Virus record (IMG/VR): IMGVR_UViG_3300050120_000442
Location: 1-63,886 of that record
Source: a virus
Taxonomy: Duplodnaviria > Caudoviricetes
Length of the DNA stretch: 63,886 bases
Strand: one strand, 5' to 3'
In this document: positions 1 to 63,799 of the stretch, piece by piece
Layout: each line of letters starts with the position of its first letter
Position numbering within the stretch: the stretch's first letter is position 1
Program-made: the position numbers and the translations under genes
The notes under the pieces: model-generated
Seen by the model: the letters and a program-made list of their open reading frames with translations, nothing else
Databases searched by the model: none
Told to the model about the DNA's origin: nothing

Positions 1-183
1 GTGACTGAAGCTATCGAGTTCCTCGCGTTGCCAGCCGTCGAACGGCTGGTTGGTCTGAAGAAAAGCAAGATCTACGCGATGGTGACAGAAGGCCTGTTCC
101 CGAAGCCGATCAAGCTCGGGCGCGCGAACCGCTGGCCCAACACCCATATCGCCGCGTGGCAGAAGGCGCAGATGGCCGCCTGA
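1..183 (+). CDS. alpA: AlpA-family regulator / excisionase (RDF)
   Basis: 60 aa with motif L..V....GL.KS.IY.M...G.FPKPIKLG; typical partner of P4-type integrases. Confidence 0.85.
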   Translation: MTEAIEFLALPAVERLVGLKKSKIYAMVTEGLFPKPIKLGRANRWPNTHIAAWQKAQMAA

Positions 184-929
184 TGCCCAACAGTGACGAC
201 GACCTGCTCGGCGTACTGCCGCAGGAAAAGCCGAAGCGTGGCGGCGGCCGACCGACCAACGAAGCTGTTGCCGCGCGCGAGAGTGAGCGGCGCGCACAGA
301 TCGAAGAGAGTCTTCGGGGGTCGCAGTTCGCCAAGCAGGGCAAGAGCGCCCTGGGCGATCCGTATAGCATCCAGGCCGGCGTCAACATCACCTGGCTCTG
401 TCAGGCCTTCCGGCAGGACATCAAGACTGTCCGCCGCAAGCTGGCCGACCTGGACCCGATCGGTGTCGGCGCCCGGAAGATGGAGATCTACGACTTCCCC
501 GCCGCGGCCTCGCGACTGGCCAAGCCGCTGCCCGACGCGATGGCCCAGTTCATCCGGGGGATGCGGGTCCAAGACCTGCCGATCCAACTGCAGCATCCGT
601 ATTGGTCGGCCATGCGGGTCCGCCAGATCTACGAGGAACACGCTGGCCAGCTATGGAAAACCGACGACGTCCTGGAGGTCTTCGCCGACACCTTCAAGAC
701 CATCAAGTCGCAGATGCAGCTCTGGGTGGATGACGTCGATTCCAATCAGGAGCTTACCAATGACCAGCGCATCCTGCTCGGCCAGATGGTCGATGGGCTC
801 CAGGATGACATCCACGCCCGCCTGGTCGAGATGCCCAAGCTCAAGCAGACCCGCAGTTCGGCAGAGGCTCCCGACATGAAGTCGATGAAGATCGACCTGG
901 CCGAGGACGACGCGGACGTGATCGGATGA
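183..929 (+). CDS. terS: Terminase small subunit (DUF1441-like)
   Basis: TGATG overlap with alpA; HTH-like segment, then helical W.T.DV..VF region; lies upstream of terL. Confidence 0.7.
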   Translation: MPNSDDDLLGVLPQEKPKRGGGRPTNEAVAARESERRAQIEESLRGSQFAKQGKSALGDPYSIQAGVNITWLCQAFRQDIKTVRRKLADLDPIGVGARKMEIYDFPAAASRLAKPLPDAMAQFIRGMRVQDLPIQLQHPYWSAMRVRQIYEEHAGQLWKTDDVLEVFADTFKTIKSQMQLWVDDVDSNQELTNDQRILLGQMVDGLQDDIHARLVEMPKLKQTRSSAEAPDMKSMKIDLAEDDADVIG

Positions 930-1606
930 GCCGCCCCAAGTTGCTCGACCTTTACTGCGGAGCGGGTGGCGCAGCCAAGGGCTACCACGACGCTGGCTTC
1001 GACGTGACCGGCGTCGATCTAAGCCCGCAGCCCCGCTTCCCATTCAAGTTCGTCGAGGGCGACTGCCTAGTGCTAGACCCGAAGTGGATCAGGCGGAACT
1101 TCGACGCGGTCCACGCGAGCCCGACCTGCCAGGCCCATACGAAGCTAAAGACCATGCACAATGCCCGCCCCCACCTGGACCTTATCCCAGGGACGAGGGC
1201 GATCCTGGAGGCCTGCGGGCTGCCCTGGATCATTGAGAACGTCGTCGGCGCTCCGCTGATAGACCCTATCATCCTGTGCGGCACGATGTTCGGGCTGGCG
1301 GCCGGCGAGCTGGAGCTTCAGCGCCATCGTCAGTTCGAGGCCAACTTCAAGCTCTACGGCTCGACCTGCCGCCATCACGGCCGCGGCACGATCGGCATCT
1401 ACGGCGATCACATCCGCGACAGGCGCCGGCGCGCCGGCAGCCAGGACCGTGGCCGAGCTGACCCCACGTTCGCGGACGGCTGCAAGGCCATGGGCATCGA
1501 CTGGATGCAGATGACCGAGCTGTGCCAGTCGATCCCGCCGGCCTACACAAGCTTCCTGGGCGCCCAGCTCCGCTACCAGGTCGAGACGTGGGACCTTATC
1601 GGATGA
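926..1606 (+). CDS. DNA cytosine-C5 methyltransferase (short type)
   Basis: Motif I LDLYCGAGG, motif IV HASPTCQ, motif VI IENV. Confidence 0.8.
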   Translation: MSRPKLLDLYCGAGGAAKGYHDAGFDVTGVDLSPQPRFPFKFVEGDCLVLDPKWIRRNFDAVHASPTCQAHTKLKTMHNARPHLDLIPGTRAILEACGLPWIIENVVGAPLIDPIILCGTMFGLAAGELELQRHRQFEANFKLYGSTCRHHGRGTIGIYGDHIRDRRRRAGSQDRGRADPTFADGCKAMGIDWMQMTELCQSIPPAYTSFLGAQLRYQVETWDLIG

Positions 1607-2304
1607 ACGAACGCGAAAAGATTGCTGCCATCATCCGTGCTCTGCGGGCCAAGACCGTTGAGAACGGCTGCACCGAAGATGAGGCCATCGCCGCCGCGGC
1701 GAAGATCGTGGAGCTGCTCGCCCGCTACAACTTGACGGTGGACGAAGTCGAGATGCGAGCTTCGCCGTTCAAGAAGCACAAGGAGGTCCACTATGACCCC
1801 GTTGGCGAGCGGGTGTGGAAGCCGGCGGTCGCCATCGCGAAGCTGACGGGCTGCACGACCTGGAAGTCCGGCCCTGGCGTGCATCCGGCAGAGATATACT
1901 TCTTCGGCTTCGAGCATGAGGTCGAGATCGCGAAATACCTGCTGGAGGTTTGCGCTGGCGCCATGCGGCGTGAGCAGGACAAGATCCTAGTGAACTACCG
2001 CCGTCTGGCGCCGGCGATGCAGCGCCGCAGGGTAGCCCCGTTCCTCGACGGGATGGCAGACCGGCTCTATCGGCGCATCCTCGAACTCATTCCGCCGACC
2101 CCGACCGGCACCGGCCTGGTGGTCCTGCGCAATGCGCTGCTCGCCAAGGCGCTGAAAGATACCGGAGTCGCCCTGAAGAAGACAAACGCCCGACCCAGCC
2201 TAGACTATGACCCGGCCTACGGCGCCGGGCGCCGGGCGGCTGACAAGGTGGCGCTGAACCCGGCCCTCGGCGGCAGCGGCGCTATCCGAGCCCTGCTGGG
2301 ATGA
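1603..2304 (+). CDS. DUF2786-like hypothetical protein
   Basis: N-terminus KI.AL.AK....GCTEDEA.AA; ATGA overlaps on both sides. Confidence 0.6.
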   Translation: MNEREKIAAIIRALRAKTVENGCTEDEAIAAAAKIVELLARYNLTVDEVEMRASPFKKHKEVHYDPVGERVWKPAVAIAKLTGCTTWKSGPGVHPAEIYFFGFEHEVEIAKYLLEVCAGAMRREQDKILVNYRRLAPAMQRRRVAPFLDGMADRLYRRILELIPPTPTGTGLVVLRNALLAKALKDTGVALKKTNARPSLDYDPAYGAGRRAADKVALNPALGGSGAIRALLG

Positions 2305-4388: not shown

Positions 4389-4396
4389 GATGTTAG

Positions 4397-9703: not shown

Positions 9704-10021
9704 ATGCCTCTCGCTTTCGCGATCAATACCATCCATCACACCGCTCCCGCGGTGGGCAAAGCTGAGCCGAAGCGCACCGTCCAGAAGGCCGGCGCCGTGT
9801 TCATCCTGTCGGCCGAAGACAAGGCCGACTTCCTGAAGTTGAAGGCCGTGCGCGAGCCGACCACGGAAGAACTGCAGCTCTACGGCCTGGCCACCGGTCA
9901 GTACGTGGACAAGGCCTCGATCAAGAGTTCGACCAAGGTCGTGGCGCCCGTCGCTGAAGCCGAGACCCCGCCCGCCGTGGTGGCTGCCGTCGTCGGCGAA
10001 TCCGACGACAGCATCGGCTGA
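9704..10021 (+). CDS. Hypothetical head protein (gpFI position)
   Basis: Synteny; AAGGTG SD before ATG 9704. Confidence 0.55.
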   Translation: MPLAFAINTIHHTAPAVGKAEPKRTVQKAGAVFILSAEDKADFLKLKAVREPTTEELQLYGLATGQYVDKASIKSSTKVVAPVAEAETPPAVVAAVVGESDDSIG

Positions 10022-33364: not shown

Positions 33365-34645
33365 TTATCCTACTAAGTCCTTTTCATGGCTAGTGCCGAG
33401 CAATGTATTTATTTCATTATCGAAATAGAACGGCGCATCTGGTAACAGGAACCGGCGACGAATATCAGCCGAGAAACCATCATTGGCCTCGATCAGTACA
33501 CAGTCGAAACCCTCGGCCTTGGCCGCTGCTCCCGTCGTGCCGCTACCGGCAAAAGGGTCCAGGACCAGGCCGCCGGCCGGCGTCACCAAGCGGCAGAGCC
33601 AGCGCATCAGAGCGATCGGCTTAACGGTGGGGTGTTCGCTACCCGCCCGGTCGGCTTTGCCCGCCTTGGGATGGTAGTGAAGCGGATCTGCGGCAAGTTC
33701 TGCGACCCACTCATCTGAACCTACTGTGAACGCATTGTAGAAACGCGCGGTGTCGCCTGCGAACATTGCCGCCACTTCAGGCGATCCGTCGTGCAAGATA
33801 TTGGCCGGCCAGCGGCCTTTCGGCTGGACGAAGTCTCCACCCCCGTTGCGGAAGCCTGCACCCTTGCCACCCGCCCGATCTTCCGACTGCCACCCAGCCC
33901 CGCGCTCACGGCGCTCACCCGAGTAGGCGCCCCCGTTCAGGTTGTCCTCGGTGGGTGCCCGGCATGCGTCGATGTTGATGGCGCCGACGCCATGCATCAG
34001 GAAGTTCGCGGGGCCGTTCTTCTCGCTGAACGCCTTCTGGCCGACGTAGATGGGTTCCAGGGCGGGCTTGGTCGCCTGCGCCCCGTAATACCAACCGTCC
34101 CAGGCCTCGGCCTCGGGTGACACGGGAATGTATTCTCCGATCACCTTGGCCGGGACCACGCCCAGGTGTTTGTCGATCGCCATGGCCGCGTTGTGGGCCT
34201 TGGGCATTCCCGAGCCGTAGGCCCAGCCGAAGAACGGATGCATGATGAAGCCGGCCAGCTCCATGGCGCAGGCCTGCCAATGGCCGGTGCGCGGGCTGCT
34301 GAACGCCAGGACGTAGCCGCCGGGCTTGAGCACCTGGTAGATCAGATGCCAGAACTCCGGGTCGCGCTCGATGCCCGTGGCGTCCCAGGTGTTGCCCATG
34401 AACCCCCTGGACGCTCGGGCGAAGGCGCCGTCAGTCCCGTGCTTGGCCGGCGCGGCGTCCGCCTTCCCGAACCGCTTCGTGATCGAGGTCAGGCCATAGG
34501 GTGGGTCTGTGCAAACCGAGTCGACGAAGACACCATTCGCGATCATCCATCGCAGGACTTCGCGGTTATCGCCTTGGTGGAACTGAAGCTGGGTCACTGG
34601 GTCAGCTCCATTCCAAAGGTTAACGTGCTTTGGTGCGTCGAACAA
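33365..34645 (-). CDS. DNA N6-adenine/N4-cytosine methyltransferase (beta class)
   Basis: TDPPY precedes HPTVKP and LDPFAGSGTT; start uncertain (possibly GTG near 34597). Confidence 0.9.
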   Translation of the reverse strand: MFDAPKHVNLWNGADPVTQLQFHQGDNREVLRWMIANGVFVDSVCTDPPYGLTSITKRFGKADAAPAKHGTDGAFARASRGFMGNTWDATGIERDPEFWHLIYQVLKPGGYVLAFSSPRTGHWQACAMELAGFIMHPFFGWAYGSGMPKAHNAAMAIDKHLGVVPAKVIGEYIPVSPEAEAWDGWYYGAQATKPALEPIYVGQKAFSEKNGPANFLMHGVGAINIDACRAPTEDNLNGGAYSGERRERGAGWQSEDRAGGKGAGFRNGGGDFVQPKGRWPANILHDGSPEVAAMFAGDTARFYNAFTVGSDEWVAELAADPLHYHPKAGKADRAGSEHPTVKPIALMRWLCRLVTPAGGLVLDPFAGSGTTGAAAKAEGFDCVLIEANDGFSADIRRRFLLPDAPFYFDNEINTLLGTSHEKDLVG

Positions 34646-34661: not shown

Positions 34662-34898
34662 TCAGCCGATCAGATCATCATCTTCGTCGGCACCGGTGAA
34701 CGGCATCACCGGCTGCAGGCTCATGTCGTAGCGCGTGGCCTTCGCCCGCCGGACGATAGACTCGAGCTTGGCGACGAAGGCAGGGATCGCGTTAATCCCC
34801 ATCACGTGCCCTGGGTGACCCTGGACGACGTGGCGCAGCCGCATGGTGATCGACTGGTCGCCGACTTCGATATCCAGGTTGCCGCAGTTTATGGTCAT
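34662..34898 (-). CDS. Hypothetical protein
   Basis: Overlap-coupled; ends DEDDDLIG. Confidence 0.6.
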   Translation of the reverse strand: MTINCGNLDIEVGDQSITMRLRHVVQGHPGHVMGINAIPAFVAKLESIVRRAKATRYDMSLQPVMPFTGADEDDDLIG

Positions 34899-35242
34899 CC
34901 GATCAGGTCGTCCTCAGGCGATGCCGGGGAGGGCTCCACGTGGGCCGGATCGACGTCGTCGTCACCCAGAGCCGGGGCGCGGGTCGTCTTGCCATCACTG
35001 GCCTTCTGGAGGGCGTGCAGGACAGCATCCGGCGCAGAGGGGCCATAGGCAAACTCGAAGAACTCGCTGTGGTCGCGCTTGCGGAGCGAGCATTGCCACT
35101 GGCCATCCGACCGGTGGCAGAGGTTGGACACGCGCAGCCCGCCCTCGCGGACCACCCGGAACAGGCGCTCCAGGGGTGGCGGGATGGCCATGGCCAGCAT
35201 CTGGGCGATCTCACCCTGCCGGGTCGCGGTATAGGCGCTCAT
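34895..35242 (-). CDS. Hypothetical protein
   Basis: Overlap-coupled to ctrA; ends PEDDLIG. Confidence 0.6.
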   Translation of the reverse strand: MSAYTATRQGEIAQMLAMAIPPPLERLFRVVREGGLRVSNLCHRSDGQWQCSLRKRDHSEFFEFAYGPSAPDAVLHALQKASDGKTTRAPALGDDDVDPAHVEPSPASPEDDLIG

Positions 35243-36290: not shown

Positions 36291-36571
36291 AGACCCCCGA
36301 TCGCGGCGAGATAGAGGTCGAGGATGGCCTCTTCCTCCAGTCGCTTCGCCTCGTCCTGCTTGCGCAGGCGCACGACCATACGAAGGATCTTGACGTCGAA
36401 CCCTTCTCCCTTGGCTTCGAGGTAGACTTCCTTGATGTCCGCCATCACGGCAGCCTTGTCCTCATCCAGGCGCTCGACGCGCTCGATGATGGTCTTGAGG
36501 CGCCCCTGGGCAGTGGAGTTCAGGACGTCGATCGAAGCGTCGTCGCCGCTGTTGTGTCCCATGCCAGCCAT
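36287..36571 (-). CDS. gapR: GapR (DUF2312) nucleoid-associated protein
   Basis: DVLNSTAQG.LK.IIERVERL...IKEVY.EAKG.GFDVK...EAILDLYL.AIG closely matches Caulobacter GapR as I recall it. Confidence 0.92.
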   Translation of the reverse strand: MAGMGHNSGDDASIDVLNSTAQGRLKTIIERVERLDEDKAAVMADIKEVYLEAKGEGFDVKILRMVVRLRKQDEAKRLEEEAILDLYLAAIGGL

Positions 36572-36930
36572 CAGGCGGCGACCTTCTGCACTCGACCAAC
36601 CCTGGGCTTCGGCGCCTTGTAGGGCTCGGCGAGAGCGGCGCGCAGCGCGACCCCGAACCGCTGGCTCGACGAAAGGTACTTCGCCGGCAGCTCCGACACC
36701 TGGCAGTGCCGCACCGCCTCGATCGTCAGCCTGCGCGACATCCGCTTGCGTTCGCCGCGGGTCATCCGAACGCTCTCGACCGATCCGTCCGGCTGGAGGA
36801 TATCGACGTCCTTCACATTCTTCGACGGACGGCGAACGCCGCCACGCGGGGCGTGCCCGGCCTTGTAGTCGCGACCCATGGCCTGGGCCTGAGCCCACGG
36901 AACGAAGAGAGTTTGAGCTGCGTTAAACAT
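36571..36930 (-). CDS. Basic hypothetical protein, first gene of the gapR-ctrA operon
   Basis: GGAG SD; TGATG coupling to gapR; ends KVAA. Confidence 0.6.
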   Translation of the reverse strand: MFNAAQTLFVPWAQAQAMGRDYKAGHAPRGGVRRPSKNVKDVDILQPDGSVESVRMTRGERKRMSRRLTIEAVRHCQVSELPAKYLSSSQRFGVALRAALAEPYKAPKPRVGRVQKVAA

Positions 36931-36989
36931 TTCGATCTCCGGTTTATTGGTCAACTTTAGGTTGATAATTATGGAAGCGCAAGGCCTCA

Positions 36990-37208
36990 TTAACGACGAA
37001 ATGCAGGTCGGTTCGTAAGGTCGGCCCAGTCCTGCATACGGACCTCGGAGTCGCCGCGCTTGCGGGCCTGCTCGGCAGCCCAGACGGCGTGCTCAGGCGT
37101 TCCAGGTTCGACAACCCTCGACACCGGCACAGGGCGTTTGCAAAGCGCGCACGCGCAGCCTAGGCCTGGGATGTAGACGTGGTCGAGCAGGTTTTCGTCG
37201 TCAGTCAT
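36990..37208 (-). CDS. Hypothetical protein
   Basis: Overlap-coupled ORF; CxCxxC. Confidence 0.5.
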   Translation of the reverse strand: MTDDENLLDHVYIPGLGCACALCKRPVPVSRVVEPGTPEHAVWAAEQARKRGDSEVRMQDWADLTNRPAFRR

Positions 37209-42849: not shown

Positions 42850-44139
42850 CTAGCGCCCCTTGGCCATGCGATGTAGCGTGAAGGCGAACAACAGGCCGAG
42901 GCATATCAAGATGGGCTTGGCGTGGCCACTGGCGGCGATGGCCAGGGCGCCGCCGAAACCCGCGACGATGAGCAATCCGAACAGGGCGAACACGCCGGCG
43001 CCGTTGCCTGGCGTCTCAACAGGGGCGGGCGAGATCCCGACGCCGGTAAACTTGATCTCCACGCCAGGGAACAGGACGGGAAGCGGGGGCATGGTCACGC
43101 GCACCAAGTCGCACGGCCGCGGCGATCCATCTTCGCCGATGGTGGATACAAGCGCCTGGCCAACCCCCATGGTCATAATCAGCCCTGCAGCGTCTAGCTT
43201 CGGGTTGATCGGCATGGTTTCGGCCGCGACACGGGCGGCGCGTTGATCCTGTACCGTGGCGCCGCGCAAGGCGTGCTGAACACGGTTGCCGAGCTGGGCG
43301 AGGATGGCGGCCGGTATGTCGGCGGGTGATTGCGTGGCGAAGTAGACCCCGACTCCCTTAGATCGAATGAGCCGGATTATCCGCTCGATGCGTTGAATCA
43401 AGGGCGGCGGTGCGTCGGCGAACAACAGGTGCGCCTCGTCGAAAAACAGGACGAGTCGCGGCTTATCGAGGTCGCCCACTTCGGGGAGTCGGTCATACAG
43501 GTCACAGAGCACGAAAAGCAGATACGCGCCGTATAGCGCGGGCGATCGGATAAGCCGGGTAGCGTCGAGGACGTGGACAAAGCCGGGCGTCATCAACTTC
43601 GCCACGTCAAAGCATGGTCCGATCAATGCGCCGGCGCACCCTTCGCGCTCTATCCCTAAAAGGGTGCGCTGAACGGCGCCGACGCTTGCGGGCGATATCA
43701 GCCCATATCGGGCACCAAGGCCTTTCGGATTGCTGGCCAGCTTGCGCAGGACGTCGCGGAAATCGCCTAGCGTGTTGATGGGAGTCCGTGTGTCGCTCGC
43801 ATAGGCGAAAGCGATATCCGTCACCCCGGCTTGCGCCTCGGATAGATTGAGCGCGCGCGCCAGTAGATCAGGGCCAAGCGCCTTAACGGTCAACCGGGCG
43901 TTCCGCATTGGGTCTAGCAGGACTTGACCGTCTAGCGCGGCCGTGAGAGGCGCCAGGTCGCCTTTAACGTCAGCGATGAATACGGCCGCGCCGGCATCGG
44001 CGAACCCTTGCGCCAGCTTGGCCACGGTGACGGATTTACCCGTTCCCGTGGCGCCCGCGATCAAGCCATGCCGGTTTGCGAATTGGCTTGCGATATAGGA
44101 CGCGCCGCCGTTGCCTTGGCCAATGGGGATTCGGGTCAT
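42850..44139 (-). CDS. DUF853/YjgR-like HerA-FtsK superfamily ATPase with C-terminal TM helices
   Basis: ANRHGLIAGATGTGKS, DVKGDL, LPEVGDLDKP.LV.FFDEAHLLF, RLIRSKGVGVYF.TQ, QLGNRVQHALR. Confidence 0.85.
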   Translation of the reverse strand: MTRIPIGQGNGGASYIASQFANRHGLIAGATGTGKSVTVAKLAQGFADAGAAVFIADVKGDLAPLTAALDGQVLLDPMRNARLTVKALGPDLLARALNLSEAQAGVTDIAFAYASDTRTPINTLGDFRDVLRKLASNPKGLGARYGLISPASVGAVQRTLLGIEREGCAGALIGPCFDVAKLMTPGFVHVLDATRLIRSPALYGAYLLFVLCDLYDRLPEVGDLDKPRLVLFFDEAHLLFADAPPPLIQRIERIIRLIRSKGVGVYFATQSPADIPAAILAQLGNRVQHALRGATVQDQRAARVAAETMPINPKLDAAGLIMTMGVGQALVSTIGEDGSPRPCDLVRVTMPPLPVLFPGVEIKFTGVGISPAPVETPGNGAGVFALFGLLIVAGFGGALAIAASGHAKPILICLGLLFAFTLHRMAKGR

Positions 44140-44363
44140 CGACGAATCCTCAAACGTGCAGGGACGCGCGGCAACGCTTTCAAAGCGGTAACCGTAAGGC
44201 CACAGTTCCGGGCGAGGTCGCGCCACGCTGCAGGCAACGCCTTTCTACCGTCTGAGTCGTGGCCTACGCCCGTTTGATCTTTCCAGCCGGTCCCGTCCTG
44301 CAGAATGATCACATAGCCCGCCGCAAAGCGGGCCGGTTCAATTCGGATTGTGGGCGCCATCAT
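44136..44363 (-). CDS. Hypothetical protein
   Basis: Overlap-coupled early-cluster ORF. Confidence 0.45.
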   Translation of the reverse strand: MMAPTIRIEPARFAAGYVIILQDGTGWKDQTGVGHDSDGRKALPAAWRDLARNCGLTVTALKALPRVPARLRIRR

Positions 44364-48310: not shown

Positions 48311-50755
48311 TTACTTCAGGCAGAGGGAGCCGGTTCTCCGGGAAACTCGCTGCTTCCCGTACTTCTCGAACCGCATGAATCCGTCCGAGTACCAGCCCTT
48401 GATCTTCTTCATCGCGCGCCCGAGCTGCTGGGATTGGATCTGACCGTAACCCGCGGCGTCCCTGCCCAAGCACGTCTCCCAGACCTCAAGCAGGCACGTC
48501 TCCTGCCGCAGGACCGGAAGGTCGCCTAGCACGTCGTCCAGGTCAGCCAAGCCAGTCTCATCGACGATGGGCCGGTCCAGCCAGGCTTCGATCTTACCGG
48601 CGAGGCCGTCTTCCGCAGACTCGACCCGGCGGTCCTCCTGGATACGCACGGCCTCACCGCTGGCGTCCTCGCCAGTCAGGTAGAGCGGCAGGTCGCCGTA
48701 TTCGCCGTGCTTCGCCCGCATCACGTCGTAGGCCGCCTTGGCTTCCGCCCAGACCTGGTCAACCTCGACCGCGAAGCCCGCGGTGTCGATCTCATCGACC
48801 TCGCATCGGATAGGCCAGAAGCGCCGGCCGCCGGTGTCGTCTCGCAGATATTCCTGGTCGTTGGTCGAGCCGAGCATGATGCACTGGCGGTCGTATTGCT
48901 GCGCCCGCCGGGCATAGGACAGGCGGACCTTGTCGCTCTGCCTGGAGATGAAGGCCTTGATCTGGCGCACGTCGGCGCGGCCGAAGCCGGACAGCTCCGG
49001 GATTTCCAAGATCCAGGAGCCTTGCATCGACTCGACCATCTGCTTCGGGTCGTGGAAGTCGCCGTCAAGCTCGCTGAACCAATCCTTGGCCAGGATGCGG
49101 ATGAAGGTGGACTTCCGCTTGCCCTGCAGACCTTCGAGGATGGTGGCGAAGTCGAACTTGTGGCCGGGCTTCATCACCCGAGCGACGCCGCCGACTAGCG
49201 TCATCCTGGCTACCGCGCGCGTATAGGGTGTGTCGTCGGCGCCGAGGAAGCGGATGAACAGGCTGTCGAGCCGCGGCACGCCATCCCAGGTCAGGCCGGA
49301 CAGGTACTCGCGGACGGGGTGGAAGGCGTTGTCGCGGGAGATGATGTCGATCGCGGCGTGCAGGTCCCGGTCGCTGATCTTGATGCCGTAGCCGCCCTGG
49401 CGGGTGGGCGCTTCCATCATGGCGCGGACGGCGTTGTCCTTGTCGTCGGTCCACAGGTCGCCGTTGACCTTGTCCTTCAAGACCCAGATAGGGCCTTCGA
49501 GTTGGACGGTGCCCTTGGGCGACTCCTTGCGGGCGATCTTCTTGCCCGGCATCCCGCGCTGGACCGACTCGCCGGTGAACTCGTTGAACGCCACGACGGT
49601 CTTCAGGCGCGGGTCGTTGCACACGATCAGCTTGACGTTGTGCAGGGTCGGCTTGATCGCCCCTTCCTCGTTGCGGTCGATCTTCGAGACCCATCCCAGG
49701 CTTGGCTTCGCCGGCTCGACCACCGCGACGGTGCCCAGGACGTCATCGTCGTCACCGGGCAGCTCGCCGAGCAGATCGTCGTCCGTCTCGATATTCTCGA
49801 ACAGGCCCACGCCGCTCAGCTCGTCGCGCAGGCGAGCGTCGGCCGCGGCCTTCAGGAGCATGGCGAACCGCATCGACTTGCCCGTGATGCGGAACGACTT
49901 CCACACCCGAACCAGGTCTTTCTCATCGAATTTGGCGGACTGCTTGGAGAACGCGCGCCACAGCCGCAGGCCGCCGTCGCCGCCCTCGAACTGGTGGTGG
50001 AGCGCCATGCCCACCGTCGTCCAGCCCTCGCGGTCCTCGCACCACTCGCCGAGCGGCAGGGCGGCCAGGGTCGCGTCGATCTCGTCGAGCGTGAGGTCCA
50101 TCGGCTGCTTGTGCAGATGGGCAGTGAGGTCGTTGTCGTCCTGGCCCTTGGAATCTTCCATGGCCAGGGTGGCGTGCCAGGACTTGACCCGATCGGCCGA
50201 CACGACAGGCCCGAGGCCCATCTCCACCAGGTCGAAGTCGAACTCCCGTGCCCAGAGGTAGGGGTTGCCTGTGACCGGGTGGATCGACGGCGGAAGCACG
50301 ACCTGCTTGCCGGTGCCGAACAGCTCGATCTCCCAGACCCAGTGCTTCTTGCCCTCGGTATCGTGAAAGAACTCGACGCTGTGCGCGACCTTCTTCGAGC
50401 GGAACGGCTCGGTGGTAAGGAAATAGAAGTGCCGGCTGTCGCCGCCGGACCCCGAGATCACGGTCGGCACGTCGGCATACTCTGGCAGGAAGTCGCGCAG
50501 TCGCGCCTTCGCCTGTTCGATCATCTCGGGCTTGCGGACGTCGAGGTCCAAGACCTGGAGGTACAGCTTTCCGATACGCGACGGCTCGCCCAGGCGCACG
50601 CCGACGTTATAGCCGGGGCGGTAGGCGCGCTTCAGGGCATCAAATGAGTATACGGGCTCAGATGCCCAAGCATTGGTGAAGGGCGCTTTGGACCGCTCGC
50701 GCAGCCAGTGGACGGCGAACCCCGCCTCCACAAGATGTTTTACGTCATCAAGCAA
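48311..50755 (-). CDS. Primase-helicase (Prim-Pol + PriCT-2 + VapE/VirE)
   Basis: LDLDV, SGSGG..RHFYF, QVVLPPSIHP, W..VGMALH, GLQGKRKST, D.TGGRRFWP; probable TTG start. Confidence 0.9.
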   Translation of the reverse strand: MLDDVKHLVEAGFAVHWLRERSKAPFTNAWASEPVYSFDALKRAYRPGYNVGVRLGEPSRIGKLYLQVLDLDVRKPEMIEQAKARLRDFLPEYADVPTVISGSGGDSRHFYFLTTEPFRSKKVAHSVEFFHDTEGKKHWVWEIELFGTGKQVVLPPSIHPVTGNPYLWAREFDFDLVEMGLGPVVSADRVKSWHATLAMEDSKGQDDNDLTAHLHKQPMDLTLDEIDATLAALPLGEWCEDREGWTTVGMALHHQFEGGDGGLRLWRAFSKQSAKFDEKDLVRVWKSFRITGKSMRFAMLLKAAADARLRDELSGVGLFENIETDDDLLGELPGDDDDVLGTVAVVEPAKPSLGWVSKIDRNEEGAIKPTLHNVKLIVCNDPRLKTVVAFNEFTGESVQRGMPGKKIARKESPKGTVQLEGPIWVLKDKVNGDLWTDDKDNAVRAMMEAPTRQGGYGIKISDRDLHAAIDIISRDNAFHPVREYLSGLTWDGVPRLDSLFIRFLGADDTPYTRAVARMTLVGGVARVMKPGHKFDFATILEGLQGKRKSTFIRILAKDWFSELDGDFHDPKQMVESMQGSWILEIPELSGFGRADVRQIKAFISRQSDKVRLSYARRAQQYDRQCIMLGSTNDQEYLRDDTGGRRFWPIRCEVDEIDTAGFAVEVDQVWAEAKAAYDVMRAKHGEYGDLPLYLTGEDASGEAVRIQEDRRVESAEDGLAGKIEAWLDRPIVDETGLADLDDVLGDLPVLRQETCLLEVWETCLGRDAAGYGQIQSQQLGRAMKKIKGWYSDGFMRFEKYGKQRVSRRTGSLCLK

Positions 50756-50795
50756 CTTCGTCCCCGATCGATTGAGTTCGTGGAAGGACGAAATC

Positions 50796-51071
50796 TCAAC
50801 CCATGACGAAGGCGAACAACTCTTGCGGGACGAGCCTGCCGTTGGAGGCTTCGATAGTCTTGCGAGCACCGGCGACGCTCATCTTGCCGCTTCGCAGCCA
50901 CTTATAGACGCCCTCGTCAGACATCTCGATCGACTTGGCGAAGGCCTTGACGTCGAAAATGCCCTGGTTGGTCCGCAGGTCCGGGAAGCTGGCGTCGAGC
51001 AGCTTATAGAGCGGGTGGTTGTAGAACATGGCGGGGTCGGGGGTCTTAGCGGCGGCCGTGGCGTCGTTCAT
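50796..51071 (-). CDS. Cro-like HTH regulator
   Basis: FAKSIEMSDEGVYKWLR HTH; first gene from the divergent promoter. Confidence 0.65.
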   Translation of the reverse strand: MNDATAAAKTPDPAMFYNHPLYKLLDASFPDLRTNQGIFDVKAFAKSIEMSDEGVYKWLRSGKMSVAGARKTIEASNGRLVPQELFAFVMG

Positions 51072-51237: not shown

Positions 51238-51726
51238 ATGAGCTTGGAAGCCGCCCTGGCCGCCAACACCGAAGCCCTCACCGTTCACACCGCTGCGCTG
51301 AATAGCCACGCGGCGCTGCTGCAGGAAGCCAATGCCGGCCGCGAAGCCGCTGTCGCCTCGCTGACCGGCGCTGTGACCGAGGGCAAGCACAAGGGCCGCA
51401 CGCCCGGCAGCAAGGCCGCCGAAAAGGCCGCCGCTGCTGCCCCCGCCGCCCCGGCTCCTGCCGAGGCCGTCGAAGAAGTGGTGACCGCCGACGTCCTGCG
51501 GGCCAAGGCCGGCGCGTTCCTGAACGTGGCCGAGCCCGAGAAGGCCGAGCGCAAGACCTTCGTGAAGTCGATCAACGCCCACTTCGGCGCCGAGACCATC
51601 GTGACGATCCCGGCTGAGAACTTCGCCCAGGTCGTGGGCTGGTTCGACCGCTTCGCTGCCGGCGAGAAGGTCAACTTCTCCGAGGGCGAGGATGAAGTCG
51701 AAGGCGAAGACGACGGCATCGGCTAG
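51238..51726 (+). CDS. Ala-rich hypothetical protein, first gene of the replication operon
   Basis: MSLE.AL..NT.A N-terminus; GGAG SD; acidic tail EDDGIG. Confidence 0.7.
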   Translation: MSLEAALAANTEALTVHTAALNSHAALLQEANAGREAAVASLTGAVTEGKHKGRTPGSKAAEKAAAAAPAAPAPAEAVEEVVTADVLRAKAGAFLNVAEPEKAERKTFVKSINAHFGAETIVTIPAENFAQVVGWFDRFAAGEKVNFSEGEDEVEGEDDGIG

Positions 51727-51739
51727 CCGACCCTACGGA

Positions 51740-52062
51740 ACCCTCGGCCTTCGGGCCGGGGGCAATCCGGCGAGCGGACGGCTGTATTGCGAACGACCTG
51801 CTGCGGGTCGCGCCCACTCCCCAGACTGCCCCCATCAACAGGAGATGACCATGCCGACCCTCAAAGAAATCGACGCCCATCTCGTAACCATCGGCGCAAC
51901 CGTGAAGAAGGGCGCCGAATACGCCGAGCACGCCTCGATCGACGCCATGATCGCCCTCGTCGGCAGCACCTTGAAGGCGTTGCACATCATCGCCTCTCCC
52001 GCCGCCACGGACTCCGCACTGGTTCCGTAAGGACGACCGGACCCTCGGCCTTCGGGCCGGGG
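51740..52062 (+). repeat. Two exact 22-bp copies of a cUUCGg hairpin (51740-51761, 52041-52062)
   Basis: ACCCTCGGCCTTCGGGCCGGGG, each shortly after a stop codon. Confidence 0.9.
51851..52030 (+). CDS. Small hypothetical protein
   Basis: AGGAG SD; flanked by the repeated hairpins. Confidence 0.6.
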   Translation: MPTLKEIDAHLVTIGATVKKGAEYAEHASIDAMIALVGSTLKALHIIASPAATDSALVP

Positions 52063-55008: not shown

Positions 55009-55623
55009 ATGGCTGAAGAAGAGAAGAAGTCGGCAGTCGCCGGCACCGAAGTCCAACTGACCAACGTCCGTCTGTCGTTCGAGCACGTGTTCGTGCCGAC
55101 CGCCTCGATCGCCGGTGGCAAGCTGAAATACCGCGCCACCTTCCTGATGGACCCCGAGACCTCCGAGGGCAAAAAGAACATCGCCCGCTGCGAAAAGGCG
55201 ATGGCTGCGGCCGAGATGCACACCTTCAAGAAGACGGGCATCAAGTACAAGGACGACCGCTGCTGCCTGACGGATGGCGAGGACAACGTCAGCCAGACCA
55301 CGGGCGAGCCCTACGAGGGCTACGTCGGCATGAAGGCCGTCTCGGCGGCCAACGGCAAGCGAATCCAGGTTGTGGACCGCAACCCGAAGGTTCCGATCAT
55401 GGCCGACGACGACAAGGTCTACAGCGGCTGCATGGTCAACGCCGTGATCCGCTTCTACTGCATCAAGGACCCGGAAAAGGGCGGCAATGGCTGCTTCGCG
55501 TCGCTGGAGTGCGTGCAGTACGTCAGCAAGGGCGTGGCGTTCGGCGCCGAGCCGGTCGATGCGTCCACCAAGTTCGCCAACCTCGGCGACGACGATGACG
55601 GCATCGACGACGACATCGGCTGA
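55009..55623 (+). CDS. DUF2815 ssDNA-binding protein
   Basis: NVRLSF, YSGC.VNA, acidic tail DDDDGIDDDIG. Confidence 0.85.
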   Translation: MAEEEKKSAVAGTEVQLTNVRLSFEHVFVPTASIAGGKLKYRATFLMDPETSEGKKNIARCEKAMAAAEMHTFKKTGIKYKDDRCCLTDGEDNVSQTTGEPYEGYVGMKAVSAANGKRIQVVDRNPKVPIMADDDKVYSGCMVNAVIRFYCIKDPEKGGNGCFASLECVQYVSKGVAFGAEPVDASTKFANLGDDDDGIDDDIG

Positions 55624-55681
55624 TCCACCCTTCGGTTACCCCGGCGTGGGCCGGGGGAATCAACCTTTAGTTGAGGATGCT

Positions 55682-56332
55682 ATGCAAGACGTAATGGTCG
55701 ATCTCGAAACCCTGGGTGACACCCCTGGGAGCGCCATTCTGTCCATCGGCGCCGTCGCGTTCGACCCCGAAACCGGCGAGATCGACGACGGCTTCTACAC
55801 CGTGATCAACGTCAATTCCTGCGTTGTCGCCGGGCTGACCTTCACCCAGGGTACCTTGGACTGGTGGAAGAAACAGTCGCCCGAGGCCAGGGGCGTCCTG
55901 AAGGCCGCCTACGCTGACACAGCCCCATCGCTGCACACGGCCTTGATCGCGCTGAACGCCTACCTGGCGCGCTTCGGCGGCCTGCGGAATTGCAAGGTCT
56001 GGGGCAACGGCGCCAGCTTCGATAACTCGATGCTCACCTTGGCCTACAAGGGGGCAGGCGCTCCGCTGGGGTGGCAATTCTGGAACGACCGCGGCTACCG
56101 GACCCTGAAGAACGAGTGGCCGCAGGTACCGCTTGGCGTCCGCGTAGGGGTCTTCCACAACGCCCTGGACGACGCCAAGACCCAGGCCGCGCACGCCCTG
56201 GAAATCTACGCTTTCAAGCGCCGCGTCCTGGCGGCCTTCGCCACCCAGGGACAGGTGGCCGAGATTGTCGGCAAAATAGACGCGGTGCTGACCCGGATTG
56301 AAGCCGAGGTCGAGGAAGACCTCGTCGGCTGA
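55682..56332 (+). CDS. DEDDh 3'-5' exonuclease
   Basis: MVDLETLG, ILSIGAV, WGNGASFD, HNALDDA. Confidence 0.85.
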   Translation: MQDVMVDLETLGDTPGSAILSIGAVAFDPETGEIDDGFYTVINVNSCVVAGLTFTQGTLDWWKKQSPEARGVLKAAYADTAPSLHTALIALNAYLARFGGLRNCKVWGNGASFDNSMLTLAYKGAGAPLGWQFWNDRGYRTLKNEWPQVPLGVRVGVFHNALDDAKTQAAHALEIYAFKRRVLAAFATQGQVAEIVGKIDAVLTRIEAEVEEDLVG

Positions 56333-58293: not shown

Positions 58294-58321
58294 TAATCAA
58301 CCATATAGTTAGGACTCAACC

Positions 58322-61279: not shown

Positions 61280-61286
61280 GAAATAG

Positions 61287-61301: not shown

Positions 61302-61322
61302 CTAAAAGGTTGAGTTTCATCT

Positions 61323-61354
61323 AGGGTCTTCAGAGAAATCTGGAGGCCCTTTTT
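61323..61354 (+). terminator. Rho-independent terminator after the repressor
   Basis: AGGGTCTTCAGA-GAAA-TCTGGAGGCCCT-TTTT. Confidence 0.8.
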
Positions 61355-61355
61355 C

Positions 61356-62228: not shown

Positions 62229-62230
62229 TC

Positions 62231-62452
62231 ATGGAAGACGCTGATTTCCAGGCTGGCGATGTGGTGGTGCTGAAGTCGGGGTCGCCGCCGATGACGGTGG
62301 CGCGGACCTGGGTGGACGACCGCTACGCCGCCAACAGGCAGTACGCCAACTGCGTCTACTACAACCCGGTCCTGGGCAACATCGAGAAGAACCTCAACAT
62401 CTGCGTCGATCTGATCGAAGCGGCCCCACCCGGTCATGTGGTGCTGCGATGA
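62231..62452 (+). CDS. DUF2158/YodC-like protein
   Basis: F..GDVV.LKSG.PPMTV. Confidence 0.75.
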   Translation: MEDADFQAGDVVVLKSGSPPMTVARTWVDDRYAANRQYANCVYYNPVLGNIEKNLNICVDLIEAAPPGHVVLR

Positions 62453-62667
62453 TCCTACCCACCTGGATTCCAAAGGTCGGCCGCCCGTTCAACCCGGATT
62501 ACGCTGAGACCTGGGAAGTCATGGATGACAACGCTAAGCGTTGGTCCTGGCTGTTCGATGCTGCTGTCGTGGTGGTCATGATCGGCGTGCTGCTGGTCTT
62601 CAGCCGATTAAGTCCTCATCATCTTCTGCCAGTCGATCGAGGAAGTCTGCCCACCATTGCATCATGA
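62449..62667 (+). CDS. Small membrane protein overlapping the integrase 3' end
   Basis: ATGA coupling; one TM helix. Confidence 0.45.
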   Translation: MILPTWIPKVGRPFNPDYAETWEVMDDNAKRWSWLFDAAVVVVMIGVLLVFSRLSPHHLLPVDRGSLPTIAS

Positions 62668-63799
62668 TCTTGCGGCCGGGTAGATACTCGGCAGCATTGT
62701 AGGCCTCGCGTACCTGGTTCTTGTCCTTGTGCGCGAGCTGCCGCTCGATCCAGTCGCGGTGAAACCCGTGCTCGTTGAGGACAGTGGACGCCATCCGCCG
62801 GAAGCCATGGCCGGTCATGTCTGTCGTCCCGTAGCCCATCCGCCGCAGCGCCGCGTTGATGGTGTTCTCGCTGATCGGCCGGGTGATCGAGCGCACCGCC
62901 GGGAACAGCAGTTCGCCCGGCGTCATCCCCATCGCCTCCCGGACGACCGCGACGGCCTGGCGCGAGAGCGGGACGAAGTGGGGGAGGGTCATCTTCATCC
63001 GCTCGGCTGACAGCGTCCAGATCCCGGCGTCCAGATCGAACTCCGACTTGGCGGCGAACCGCAGCTCCTTCGACCGCACGAACGTCAGCGCCACAAGCTG
63101 CAGGGCCGACCGCGTCGCGAAGTTGCCATCGTAGCCGCGCAGGGACCTCACCAGCGGCCCGATCCTTTTCGGATCGAGTATGGCGGCGTGGTGGGTGACC
63201 TTGGGTGCCAGGGTGGCTCCCCTGAGCGGCACGGTAGGATCGTGGATCGCCCTGGCCGTGCGAATCGCGAACCGGAACACGGCGCTGCAGGTCGAGCGCA
63301 GGCGAACCGCGCTTTCCAGCCGTCCGGTCTTCTCCACCCGTGCCAGGATCTCCAAAACTTCCGGCGGCATGATGTCGGCGACAGGTCTGTTGCCCAGCAT
63401 CGGGTAGGCCAGGCTCAGAAGCCAGGTGTGCTTCTTGATCGTGCCGGGGGTGGCGCCGTCCGCCGTCCGCCGCAGGAGCCATTCCTCGGCGACGACCTTG
63501 AAGGTGTTCGCTGAGCTGACGGCCGCCGTGATCTTGGCCAGGCGCTTGACGACGGACGGGTCCTGGCCACCGGCCAGTGTCTTGCGAGCAGTCTCGCGCG
63601 CCGCCCGCGCCGCGCCCAGGCCAACCAACGGGTAGGCGCCGAGGGTCAGCTTTTTCTGCTTCCCGCTGAACCGGTAGGCGAGATTCCAGGCCTTCGACCC
63701 GTTGGTCCGCACCAGTAGGTAGAGTCCGAAGGCGTCGCTGAGCTTGTAGTCCTTCGCCCGAGCCTTGGCCGATCGGACCTCTAATTCGGTGAGCGCCAT
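62600..63799 (-). CDS. int: Tyrosine integrase, P4/IntA family
   Basis: Arm-binding N-domain (LT..EVR.AK...KDYKL.D..GLYL), VRS.EL, HGFR..AST.LNE, IE.QLAH, AYN.A.Y; start at ATG 63799. Confidence 0.95.
   Translation of the reverse strand: MALTELEVRSAKARAKDYKLSDAFGLYLLVRTNGSKAWNLAYRFSGKQKKLTLGAYPLVGLGAARAARETARKTLAGGQDPSVVKRLAKITAAVSSANTFKVVAEEWLLRRTADGATPGTIKKHTWLLSLAYPMLGNRPVADIMPPEVLEILARVEKTGRLESAVRLRSTCSAVFRFAIRTARAIHDPTVPLRGATLAPKVTHHAAILDPKRIGPLVRSLRGYDGNFATRSALQLVALTFVRSKELRFAAKSEFDLDAGIWTLSAERMKMTLPHFVPLSRQAVAVVREAMGMTPGELLFPAVRSITRPISENTINAALRRMGYGTTDMTGHGFRRMASTVLNEHGFHRDWIERQLAHKDKNQVREAYNAAEYLPGRKIMMQWWADFLDRLAEDDEDLIG

What the first reader, a model, noticed from the sequence alone, without database searches (positions are those of the whole stretch)
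183..63799. Ten unrelated phage proteins share one C-terminal tag, D-x-[I/V]-G-COOH: a candidate phage-wide docking or degradation system
Seen in sequence, the C-termini are: TerS ..DDADVIG (929), C5-MTase ..WDLIG (1606), FI-position protein ..SDDSIG (10021), amino-MTase ..EKDLVG (33365), hyp ..DEDDDLIG (34662), hyp ..PEDDLIG (34895), hyp ..EGEDDGIG (51726), SSB ..GIDDDIG (55623), exonuclease ..VEEDLVG (56332), integrase ..DDEDLIG (62600). Related internal copies occur in the TerS N-terminus (SDDDLLG) and primase (TDDDLLG, DDDDVLG, DLDDVLG). Codons differ among copies (CTT/CTG/TTA/CTC, ATC/GTC/GTA, GGA/GGC, all three stops), so selection appears to act on the peptide. Several carriers have no coupled downstream gene. 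Families that to my knowledge normally lack such a tail (P4-type integrase, two MTase classes) carry it, suggesting repeated acquisition within this lineage. Most carriers act on DNA. Inference: a short linear motif, analogous to the bacterial SSB tail (DDDIPF), that recruits phage proteins to a common hub or compartment, a protease/adaptor, or a C-terminal-Gly conjugation or packaging pathway. I know of no description of such a system.
Basis: partly seen in the sequence, partly recalled or inferred. Interest (0 to 1): 0.88.

Follow-up and report, generated by a model that had tools for sequence, protein, structure and literature searches.

The report
Shared acidic tail on phage proteins
Ten unrelated DNA-handling proteins of this temperate phage end in the same short acidic tail, which related phages keep or replace with their own version, so it looks like a common docking tag whose partner is still unknown.

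Summary
All ten gene ends read D-x-[I/V]-G-stop. The matching DNA pattern occurs 12 times against about 0.9 expected.

It is selected at the protein level:
- Codons and stop codons differ. Gly is GGA at the three gene ends where the stop overlaps the next gene's ATG, plus the N6/N4-methylase end.
- A second provirus (G001) carries [D/E]-x-[I/V]-G on nine gene ends, although its TerS, integrase and exonuclease are only 37-54% identical.
- Six of six close TerS homologues and three of three SSB homologues keep it.
- Only 2 of 25 nearest integrase representatives have it, so there it is an add-on.

Related Casjensviridae use other versions: DDLLG in Ruegeria phage DSS3-P1, DDMLA in AchV4, DDMLD in a metagenome relative. 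Each version sits on several replication proteins, and in DSS3-P1 and AchV4 also in the TerS N-terminal region and the primase.

Best reading: an expanded, lineage-specific form of the acidic docking tail known from phage SSBs (T7 gp2.5 and gp4 binding the polymerase). The partner is unidentified. Internal copies and a variable last residue argue against a degron or C-terminal glycine conjugation.

The parts
183..929 (+). Small terminase subunit. C-terminal tail ..AEDDADVIG (codons 915-929, stop TGA overlapping the next ATG). A second copy of the motif sits at the N-terminus, SDDDLLG (192-212), followed by a KRGGGRP basic stretch.
   Evidence: PHROG 141, E 5e-34; translation; codons; 6 of 6 close homologues keep both motifs.
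926..1606 (+). DNA methyltransferase, 226 aa. It shows GAGG, PTCQ and ENV stretches, which I recall as the C5-cytosine methylase motifs. Tail ..ETWDLIG; stop TGA overlaps the next ATG at 1603.
   Evidence: PHROG 363, E 4e-32; translation; codons.
9704..10021 (+). Small protein directly after the major capsid gene (ORF open from 9632; likely start ATG at 9704). Tail ..GESDDSIG.
   Evidence: Translation. No Pfam or PHROG family. G001 has two post-capsid ORFs ending DDMVG and SDLVG.
33365..34645 (-). N6/N4 DNA methyltransferase, 426 aa. Tail ..HEKDLVG, written with rare codons TTA GTA GGA and stop TAA.
   Evidence: Pfam PF01555, E 6e-23; codons. The G001 orthologue has ..ILALVG followed by ten more residues.
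34662..34898 (-). 78-aa protein of unknown function. Tail ..ADEDDDLIG.
   Evidence: Translation; no family. In the same position G001 has a 115-aa ORF ending DEDDLIG; its relation to the 78-aa protein was not tested.
34895..35242 (-). 115-aa protein of unknown function. Tail ..SPEDDLIG after a proline-rich linker; stop overlaps the next ATG.
   Evidence: The G001 orthologue of 112 aa ends DDDDLIG.
51238..51726 (+). 162-aa protein, first gene of the rightward replication block. Tail ..EGEDDGIG, stop TAG. In every relative examined except the Rhizobium phage and RcRios, where its counterpart was not identified, its tail matches or closely resembles the tail of that phage's SSB.
   Evidence: Translation. 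Counterparts: G001 EEEDGLI, AchV4 DDDMLA, L001 DEDDMLD, DSS3-P1 DDDDILG. No named family.
55009..55623 (+). Enc34/gp2.5-type ssDNA-binding protein. Tail ..GIDDDIG.
   Evidence: Pfam PF10991, E 5e-26. Three homologues of 63-64% identity end DDGIG, DDEIG and DDGIG.
55682..56332 (+). Rv2179c-like 3'-5' exonuclease (start inferred from the alignment with G001). Tail ..VEEDLVG; the stop shares one base with the polymerase ATG.
   Evidence: Pfam PF16473, E 8e-47. 54% identical to the G001 orthologue, which ends EDEDLVG, while the preceding ~35 residues diverge.
62600..63799 (-). P4-type tyrosine integrase (ORF open to 63886). Tail ..AEDDEDLIG, added after the conserved WWADFLDR helix.
   Evidence: Pfam PF13356, PF22022 and PF00589. 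The G001 integrase (47% identical) ends AGELIG. 2 of 25 nearest representatives end ENLIG or DDLIG.
48311..50869 (-). Prim-Pol/VapE primase-helicase with three internal copies of the motif in linkers: DDDLLG (49767-49780), DDDDVLG (49734-49747) and DLDDVLG (48525-48538).
   Evidence: Pfam; translation; pattern hits. The G001 primase has EEDLLG and ADDLVG at matching places.

Best explanation
The tail is a short linear docking motif, in general form [D/E]-D-hydrophobic-hydrophobic-G. It sits at the end of a flexible acidic linker. I read it as a local version of the acidic-hydrophobic C-terminal tail that phage ssDNA-binding proteins use to hold on to replisome partners.

In this phage family the same version is written on several proteins of one genome: the SSB, the protein upstream of it, the DUF2800 nuclease, the primase-helicase linkers and the N-terminal region of TerS. 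It changes together on them from phage to phage. In the lineage of this window it has spread further, to both methylases, the integrase, the exonuclease, the TerS C-terminus and small head-region and early proteins.

Inferred mechanism: the acidic run and the two hydrophobic residues bind a basic, pocketed surface on one shared partner. This concentrates the enzymes that replicate, methylate, recombine, integrate and package the phage DNA at one place.

Shown: the motif exists, is far above chance, is selected as a peptide, is conserved in diverged relatives and co-varies within genomes.

Inferred: that it binds in trans, that there is one partner, and which one. The phage family-B DNA polymerase (by analogy with T7) and the large terminase (TerS carries the motif family-wide) are my first candidates. 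A phage-encoded partner seems more likely than a host one, because two phages of Rhodobacterales hosts use different versions.
For: 1. Enrichment. 12 pattern hits against ~0.9 expected. About 25-fold denser than in three bacterial genomes. DDLIG-TGA was found in 0 of 61 sampled genomes.

2. Peptide-level selection. Codons and stops differ. GGA is used for Gly in 3 of 3 tails whose stop overlaps the next ATG in the window, and likewise in 3 of 3 in G001.

3. Conservation in G001. It has 9 pattern hits against 2 for the reversed control. Nine gene ends read [D/E]-x-[I/V]-G: integrase, AlpA-like protein, TerS, two post-capsid ORFs, two small proteins, exonuclease and C5-methylase. Its proteins are only 37%, 47% and 54% identical to the window's TerS, integrase and exonuclease, and the linkers do not align.

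4. TerS homologues. 7 of 12 aligned sequences end D-x-[I/V]-G, and 11 of 12 have the N-terminal copy. SSB homologues: 3 of 3 end IG.

5. Co-variation within genomes.
- DSS3-P1: DDLLG-COOH on the SSB and the nuclease, DDILG on the upstream protein, EDLLG on the primase C-terminus, three internal primase copies, and IDDLLGG at the TerS N-terminus.
- AchV4: DDDMLA and DDPLA tails, primase DTDMLLA, TerS IDDMLG.
- L001: DDDMLD on two proteins, primase DDLLDG.
- G001: DGLI on the SSB and its upstream protein.
- [D/E]D-hydrophobic-hydrophobic-G pattern counts: window 13, G001 12, DSS3-P1 12, with reversed controls 0, 0 and 1.

6. Precedent. The T7 gp2.5 and gp4 acidic tails bind basic patches on the polymerase (passages read). 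The Enc34 SSB family has a disordered acidic tail (passages read).
Against: - No binding was shown and the partner is unidentified.
- The three tails without a hydrophobic residue at -3 (DDSIG, DDGIG, DDDIG), and the separate DGLI pair in G001, allow two partner systems rather than one.
- Why an integrase, an excisionase-like protein or a head-region protein should dock on a replication or packaging hub is not obvious.
- Four other Casjensviridae of alphaproteobacterial hosts and AchV4 show no excess of [D/E]-x-[I/V]-G-stop. The ten-protein spread is therefore confined to a narrow lineage.
- The host genome could not be examined, so the host-proteome frequency rests on unrelated bacteria.
- The co-variation is read by eye from five or six genomes, without a formal test. 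The script machine was lost.
Confidence: 0.55

Rival explanations
1. There are two or more separate docking systems, not one phage-wide hub. In one, the SSB and its upstream protein share a tail for a replisome partner. In the other, a distinct D-L-[I/V]-G tail serves TerS, integrase, methylases and exonuclease. The two merely look alike in this window.
For: In G001 the SSB and its upstream protein end DGLI, while nine other proteins end [D/E]-x-[I/V]-G. In the window those two proteins and the post-capsid protein lack the hydrophobic residue at -3.
Against: In DSS3-P1 and AchV4 the TerS motif, the primase copies and the SSB-type tails use the same version. That fits one partner better.
Confidence: 0.2
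2. The tails act in cis as acidic DNA mimics. Each folds back on its own protein's DNA-binding surface and gates DNA binding, so no common partner is needed.
For: All carriers with a recognised family act on DNA. In the Enc34 SSB, removing the acidic tail allowed binding to double-stranded DNA, and the tail lay in the groove of a neighbouring molecule in the crystal (passages read).
Against: Unrelated folds would not be expected to demand the same last three residues. The residues also would not be expected to change together on different proteins between phages.
Confidence: 0.1
3. The tail is a degradation tag read by a host or phage protease. It keeps dangerous DNA enzymes short-lived.
For: C-terminal position on ten proteins whose leaky expression in a lysogen could be harmful (inference). 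The phage CtrA-like regulator ends in AA. From memory, ClpXP substrates of Caulobacter end that way.
Against: The motif also works as internal copies in primase linkers and at N-termini. The abundant SSB carries it. From memory, acidic residues next to a C-terminus weaken recognition by ClpX.
Confidence: 0.07
4. It is a nucleotide-level or translational by-product: a signal at gene ends for start-stop coupling, reinitiation or recombination between modules.
For: Four of the ten tails overlap the next start codon (three as ATGA, one as TGATG). Seven of ten share ATCGG[A/C]TGA.
Against: - Six of the ten do not overlap a downstream start; of these, one is followed 3 nt later by a GTG start and one 16 nt later by a start, and four have no nearby downstream gene: two lie at operon ends and two are followed by hairpins.
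- All three stop codons occur, and the bases after the stop are not conserved.
- Homologues vary conservatively at the amino-acid level: DLIG, DLVG, DMIG, DPVG.
- Internal copies have no stop at all.
Confidence: 0.04
5. It is a C-terminal glycine handle for enzymatic conjugation, or a signal for loading proteins into the capsid (as cargo peptides do in encapsulins).
For: The terminal residue is Gly after hydrophobic residues. Several carriers (methylases, integrase) would be useful if injected with the DNA. Both points are inference.
Against: - In relatives the last residue is A, D, I, F or L.
- Internal copies exist.
- In DSS3-P1 the carriers are replisome proteins.
- No E1-like enzyme was seen among the 30 window proteins scanned with Pfam. 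That is fewer than half of the genes.
Confidence: 0.04

Closest known systems
Acidic C-terminal tails of the phage T7 replisome (gp2.5 SSB and gp4 helicase-primase docking on basic patches of the gp5 polymerase)
   Same: - A disordered acidic tail at the extreme C-terminus.
- Present on the SSB (here of the same gp2.5/Enc34 structural type) and on the primase-helicase (C-terminal in DSS3-P1, internal linkers here).
- Two or more proteins of one phage share the tail in order to reach one partner (passages read).
   Different: - T7 has two carriers. Here there are ten, most outside the replisome: TerS, integrase, two methylases and small proteins.
- The T7 tail ends in an aromatic residue (reference titles seen). 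Here it ends in [I/V]-G.
- The polymerase here is family B by the precomputed Pfam hits of some homologues, not family A.
- Binding to it is not shown.
Enc34 ORF6 / DUF2815 ssDNA-binding protein family
   Same: The window's SSB matches this family (PF10991, E 5e-26). The solved member has an unstructured, strongly acidic C-terminal segment (passages read).
   Different: The passages I read treat the tail as an SSB feature. They do not report the same tail on other proteins of the phage.
Bacterial SSB C-terminal tip (recalled as D-D-D-I-P-F), which binds many genome-maintenance proteins
   Same: An acidic run followed by hydrophobic residues at a free C-terminus, used as a hub contact. The window SSB shares the D-D-D-I part.
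   Different: - The topology is reversed: there one tail meets many partners; here many proteins carry one tail.
- The terminal P-F is absent.
- The phage versions differ between phages, whereas the bacterial tip is, from memory, nearly invariant.
- The comparison rests on recall, not on a call.
Clamp-centred docking in phage T4 (C-terminal peptides of the polymerase and late-transcription proteins binding the gp45 clamp) and bacterial beta-clamp-binding motifs (recalled as Q-L-[S/D]-L-F)
   Same: Several unrelated DNA-acting proteins carry one short terminal peptide and converge on one hub.
   Different: - No clamp gene was recognised among the 30 window proteins scanned.
- The motif has no Q and no terminal F or L.
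- The comparison is recalled, not tested.

Membership tests
SSB-type acidic C-terminal docking tail (T7 gp2.5/gp4, Enc34 ORF6) | Located at the extreme C-terminus, after a low-complexity or disordered linker | tested here: met
   All ten tails are the last residues. Linkers rich in D, E, P and A precede them in TerS, the 115-aa protein, the post-capsid protein, the 162-aa protein and the SSB. Disorder was judged by eye, not computed. The C5-methylase tail has only a short linker.
SSB-type acidic C-terminal docking tail (T7 gp2.5/gp4, Enc34 ORF6) | Carried by the phage's own SSB | tested here: met
   The SSB (PF10991) ends GIDDDIG. Its three homologues end IG.
SSB-type acidic C-terminal docking tail (T7 gp2.5/gp4, Enc34 ORF6) | Acidic run followed by hydrophobic residue(s) | tested here: met
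   All ten tails have D at -4 and I or V at -2. Eight of the ten have further D or E upstream.
SSB-type acidic C-terminal docking tail (T7 gp2.5/gp4, Enc34 ORF6) | Terminal aromatic residue, as in T7 | tested here: not met
   The last residue is G in all ten. In relatives it is G, A, D, I or F.
SSB-type acidic C-terminal docking tail (T7 gp2.5/gp4, Enc34 ORF6) | Binds the DNA polymerase or another replisome protein | not testable with these tools
   It needs pull-downs or a full screen of predicted complexes.
Beta-clamp-binding motif | Consensus Q-L-[S/D]-L-F or Q-L-x-L-x-L (recalled) | tested here: not met
   None of the ten tails or four internal copies has Q at the first position or F or L at the last.
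C-terminal degron of the ssrA/ClpX type | Non-polar extreme C-terminus such as L-A-A that must be terminal (recalled) | tested here: not met
   The tails are acidic and end in G. Functional-looking internal and N-terminal copies exist.
Ubiquitin-like or E1-dependent C-terminal glycine conjugation | Invariant terminal Gly, and an adenylating enzyme in the system | tested here: inconclusive
   The terminal residue varies between related phages. No E1-like domain was seen among the 30 window proteins scanned with Pfam, but more than half of the genes were not scanned.
Encapsulin-type cargo-loading peptide | C-terminal peptide that binds the inner face of an HK97-fold shell | not tested
   No virion proteome or complex model is available. 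In DSS3-P1 the carriers are replisome proteins, which argues against it.

The most novel reading that the evidence does not exclude
A phage-wide docking code. One short peptide, [D/E]-D-hydrophobic-hydrophobic-G, is written on at least ten proteins that replicate, recombine, methylate, integrate, excise and package the genome. It gathers them on a single phage-encoded hub, forming one DNA-processing assembly. Each phage lineage keeps its own private version (LIG, LLG, MLA, MLD, GLI), which co-evolves with that hub. This could also keep the machineries of co-infecting relatives apart.
Probability: 0.35. Interest if true: 0.82.

Novelty: new variant of a known kind. Interest (0 to 1): 0.68.

Why it matters
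If the tails dock on one hub, these phages coordinate replication, DNA methylation, integration and packaging through a single transferable peptide. That would be a compact organising principle that genome annotation does not capture.

It would also explain several proteins of unknown function by their membership in the tail set, and provide a short portable tag for recruiting proteins to phage DNA.

The system is directly testable. Ruegeria phage DSS3-P1 carries the DDLLG version on at least five proteins, and its database record names a host strain (Ruegeria pomeroyi DSS-3).

The lineage-specific versions are a natural experiment in the co-evolution of a peptide and its binding pocket.

Tried and rejected
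1. Complex prediction. Chains: polymerase (43-row alignment), SSB core (residues 1-185), and the last 36 residues of the 115-aa protein as partner. Result: no verdict (score 0.00, mark 0.32, controls not run). This says nothing for or against binding.

2. The script machine was lost. No proteome-wide statistics, disorder prediction or formal co-variation test could be run. Gene calls after that are by hand from ORF lists.

The contigs of the closest SSB, TerS and integrase homologues and the host contig (the window's SSB sits on a 424-kb contig) could therefore not be read.

4. Close relatives:
- Megablast of 20 kb against the phage collection gave one 70-base hit.
- Single-protein locus scans found nothing.
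- Scans with the SSB alignment gave only distant loci without the D-x-[I/V]-G pattern.
- The relative G001 was found instead by scanning viral contigs for the DDLIG-TGA pattern.

5. Translational coupling as the cause was rejected: only four of ten tails overlap the next start.

6. Family and atlas searches gave no family for the 162-aa, 78-aa, 115-aa and post-capsid proteins. The atlas gave only unnamed viral clusters for the 162-aa protein.

7. Literature. A search for the strings DDLIG, DDDLIG, EDLIG, 'DLIG motif', EDLVG and DDLVG returned one unrelated paper. A six-term search for a shared conserved C-terminal acidic docking motif in bacteriophages returned nothing relevant. Subscription journals and supplementary files were not searchable.

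8. No tRNA gene was found in the window, so the attachment site gave no clue to the host.

Full report
**What the window is.** The 63,886-base window is the whole record held for this genome. It is classed as a provirus, 98% complete, with 62-65% G+C over most of its length.
- Its modules are those of Casjensviridae-like siphoviruses. The nearest named relatives by large terminase are Achromobacter phage AchV4 (57.5% identity), Rhizobium phage RHph_X2_30, Loktanella phage pCB2051-A and Ruegeria phage DSS3-P1.
- It encodes a CtrA-type response regulator and a GapR homologue.
- The closest named polymerase homologues come from Caulobacteraceae, Sphingomonas and Mesorhizobium.
- I therefore infer an alphaproteobacterial host. 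The window's SSB sequence is on record on a 424-kb contig, but I could not read that contig.

**The observation.**
- The DNA pattern for D-x-[I/V/M]-G followed by TGA occurs 8 times against 0.44 expected. With TAA or TAG it occurs 4 times against 0.44 expected. No shuffle reached either count.
- Ten of the twelve hits are the ten gene ends. The other two lie antisense to structural genes.
- With about 77 genes by my hand count, about one protein in eight carries the tail.
- In three unrelated bacterial genomes the TGA pattern runs at 4-5 per Mb, against 125 per Mb here.
- The exact DDLIG-TGA pattern was found in 0 of 61 sampled genomes of one phylum. These are not the host.

**Selection is on the peptide.**
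- Leu is written CTT, CTG, CTC and TTA. The residue at -2 is written ATC, GTC and GTA. All three stop codons occur, and the bases after the stop are unrelated.
- Gly is GGA in exactly the three tails whose TGA overlaps the next gene's ATG (929, 1606, 34895), plus the N6/N4-methylase. Elsewhere it is GGC.
- The same holds in G001, where three of three GGA tails are ATGA overlaps. The glycine is kept while its codon bends to the neighbouring gene.
- Only four of the ten tails overlap a downstream start. Two are followed by hairpins and two end operons. Coupling cannot be the cause.

**A second phage with the same tails.**
- I scanned viral contigs for DDLIG-TGA. This gave 20 loci, one of which held two hits 344 bases apart.
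- That record (G001, a 61.5-kb provirus) has 9 hits of the D-x-[I/V]-G-stop pattern against 2 for the reversed control.
- Eight of the nine hits are gene ends:

| G001 protein | C-terminus |
|---|---|
| AlpA-like protein, 72 aa | VADLIG |
| TerS | DEDLVG |
| Post-capsid ORF 1 | TDDMVG |
| Post-capsid ORF 2 | GSDLVG |
| Small protein, 115 aa | DEDDLIG |
| Small protein, 112 aa | DDDDLIG |
| Rv2179c-like exonuclease | EDEDLVG |
| C5-methylase | LDEDLIG |

- The ninth hit has no ORF of 60 aa or more. The integrase ends AGELIG, which makes nine gene ends in all.
- The G001 primase has internal EEDLLG and ADDLVG. Its GapR-like protein begins MASEDDDLIGG.
- The two phages are far apart: TerS is 37% identical, the integrase 47% and the exonuclease 54%. 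In TerS and the exonuclease the residues before the tail do not align.

**Homologues of single carriers.**
- SSB: three of three homologues at 63-64% identity end DDGIG, DDEIG and DDGIG, behind linkers of different length.
- TerS: I aligned 12 sequences, namely the query, all ten database hits and G001.
  - Seven end D-x-[I/V]-G (DVIG, DLIG, DLVG, DMIG, DLVG, DPVG, DLVG).
  - Three more distant ones end SLV, DLV and ELL.
  - Two have neither.
  - Eleven of the twelve also carry the motif near the N-terminus, as DEDLIG or DDLLG.
- Integrase: I fetched the top 25 of the 150 listed representatives.
  - Two end EDENLIG and ENDDLIG, and one ends TAGLLG.
  - The other 22, including the closest at 61% identity, have ordinary basic or neutral ends.

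**The wider family uses other versions of the same thing.** The D-x-[I/V]-G-stop pattern is not enriched in the Rhizobium, Loktanella, Ruegeria and Rhodobacter phages or in AchV4 (0-4 hits each, some ending in TGG, close to the controls). Reading their proteins shows related tails instead:

| Phage | Carriers and tails |
|---|---|
| DSS3-P1 | SSB DDDLLG; DUF2800 nuclease VDDLLG; upstream protein DDDDILG; primase C-terminus IEDLLG; three internal primase copies (IDDLLGG twice, FDGLLGG); TerS begins MSDDLSIDDLLGG |
| AchV4 | Upstream protein DDDMLA; SSB DDPLA; nuclease DIDDLL; primase internal DTDMLLA; TerS internal SIDDMLG |
| L001 (metagenome) | SSB DDDMLD; upstream protein DEDDMLD; primase internal DDLLDG |
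| G001 | SSB DDDDDGLI; upstream protein EEEDGLI |
| RcRios | SSB SLLDF; exonuclease SELLI; C5-methylase DGLIV; TerS N-terminus TDLFS |
| Rhizobium phage | TerS begins MEDFDDIFG; nuclease ends FEDFDD; SSB ends DDDDI |

- The looser pattern [D/E]-D-hydrophobic-hydrophobic-G occurs 13, 12 and 12 times in the window, G001 and DSS3-P1. It occurs 7, 3 and 2 times in the Rhizobium, Loktanella and RcRios phages. Reversed controls are 0-1.
- In the window, 8 of the 13 hits are in-frame tails or linker copies, 2 are conserved structural stretches of the nuclease and the polymerase, and 3 are antisense (my reading).
- Within a genome, then, the same version recurs on unrelated proteins, and between genomes it changes on all of them together. 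I judged this by eye and could not test it formally.

**Interpretation.**
- A short peptide that sits at the ends of flexible linkers, also works as internal copies, is conserved while its surroundings drift, and co-varies across unrelated proteins of one genome behaves like a linear docking motif with one shared partner.
- The established precedent is T7. There the acidic tails of the SSB gp2.5 and the helicase-primase gp4 bind basic patches on the polymerase (passages read).
- The window's SSB belongs to the same structural type, and the solved member of that family has a disordered acidic tail.
- What is new:
  - The breadth: ten carriers, most of them outside the replisome.
  - The terminal [I/V]-G instead of an aromatic residue.
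  - The private versions of each lineage.
- Partner candidates:
  - The phage family-B polymerase, by analogy with T7.
  - The large terminase, because TerS carries the motif family-wide and the post-capsid proteins carry it too.
  - I lean to a phage-encoded partner, because DSS3-P1 and RcRios both infect Rhodobacterales yet differ in version. This is weak evidence.

**Rivals.**
- Two separate docking systems remain possible (the DGLI pair in G001; the three window tails without a hydrophobic -3 residue).
- Cis-acting DNA-mimic tails do not explain a shared, co-varying terminal tripeptide on unrelated folds.
- A degron or a glycine-dependent conjugation is hard to reconcile with internal and N-terminal copies and with the A, D, I or F endings in relatives.
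- A nucleotide-level signal is contradicted by the codon variation and by the six tails that overlap no downstream start.

**Limits.**
- No binding evidence was obtained, and the one complex job gave no verdict.
- The host genome and the contigs of the closest homologues could not be read.
- Scripts were unavailable.
- Paper supplements were closed. I do not think they bear on the claims.

**Verdict.** The docking reading is the best supported. The feature is a new, much expanded variant of a known kind of phage protein tail, and its partner remains to be found.

Noticed in passing
window 35239-36000 (-) and 36287-36898 (-): The phage encodes a CtrA-type response regulator (receiver plus OmpR-type output domain) that ends in ..ENAA, and a GapR-like DNA-binding protein. 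Both point to an alphaproteobacterial host.
   Followed up: partly
window gene ends at 183, 9645, 12416, 35239, 37205 (and ORF 36571-36990): Five or six proteins end in Ala-Ala (..QMAA..VVAA..RVAA..ENAA..KLAA..KVAA). From an alanine content of about 12% I would expect 1-2. Several AchV4 and G001 proteins also end in AA. It could be composition or a second terminal signal.
   Followed up: no
window 183-260; TerS homologues in alignment A3: In 11 of 12 TerS sequences the N-terminal acidic-hydrophobic motif is followed within about ten residues by a basic G-R-P stretch that looks like an AT-hook. In AchV4 the order is reversed.
   Followed up: partly
L001 9540-9575: In the metagenome relative the C5-methylase frame stops at 9556. 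The next frame reads ..TLEEMLD and stops at 9572, exactly at the polymerase start. That reproduces this phage's MLD tail out of frame. It could be a sequencing frameshift, a programmed shift or chance.
   Followed up: no
window 42850-44226 (-), and the 44-48 kb region: A HerA-like ATPase (PF05872, E 1e-114) with a hydrophobic C-terminal stretch sits beside a region of lower G+C (0.56). This region holds small ORFs that look like accessory or defence cargo.
   Followed up: no
window 51727-51770 and 55624-55665: G+C-rich hairpins follow directly after the stops of the 162-aa protein and the SSB. They look like terminators or attenuators inside the replication block.
   Followed up: no
window 4388; L047 3579; L045 3582: The large terminases end ..LEALGSALG (window), ..LRTLAEKLG (DSS3-P1) and ..LSALARELA (Rhizobium phage). 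This is a hydrophobic-Gly or -Ala end without the acidic run.
   Followed up: no
L042 10965-12215 (-) in G001: The G001 orthologue of the N6/N4-methylase has ..DPDILALVG followed by ten further residues (FPSDVAELL). A tail-like stretch is internal there, whereas the window's enzyme ends at ..DLVG.
   Followed up: no
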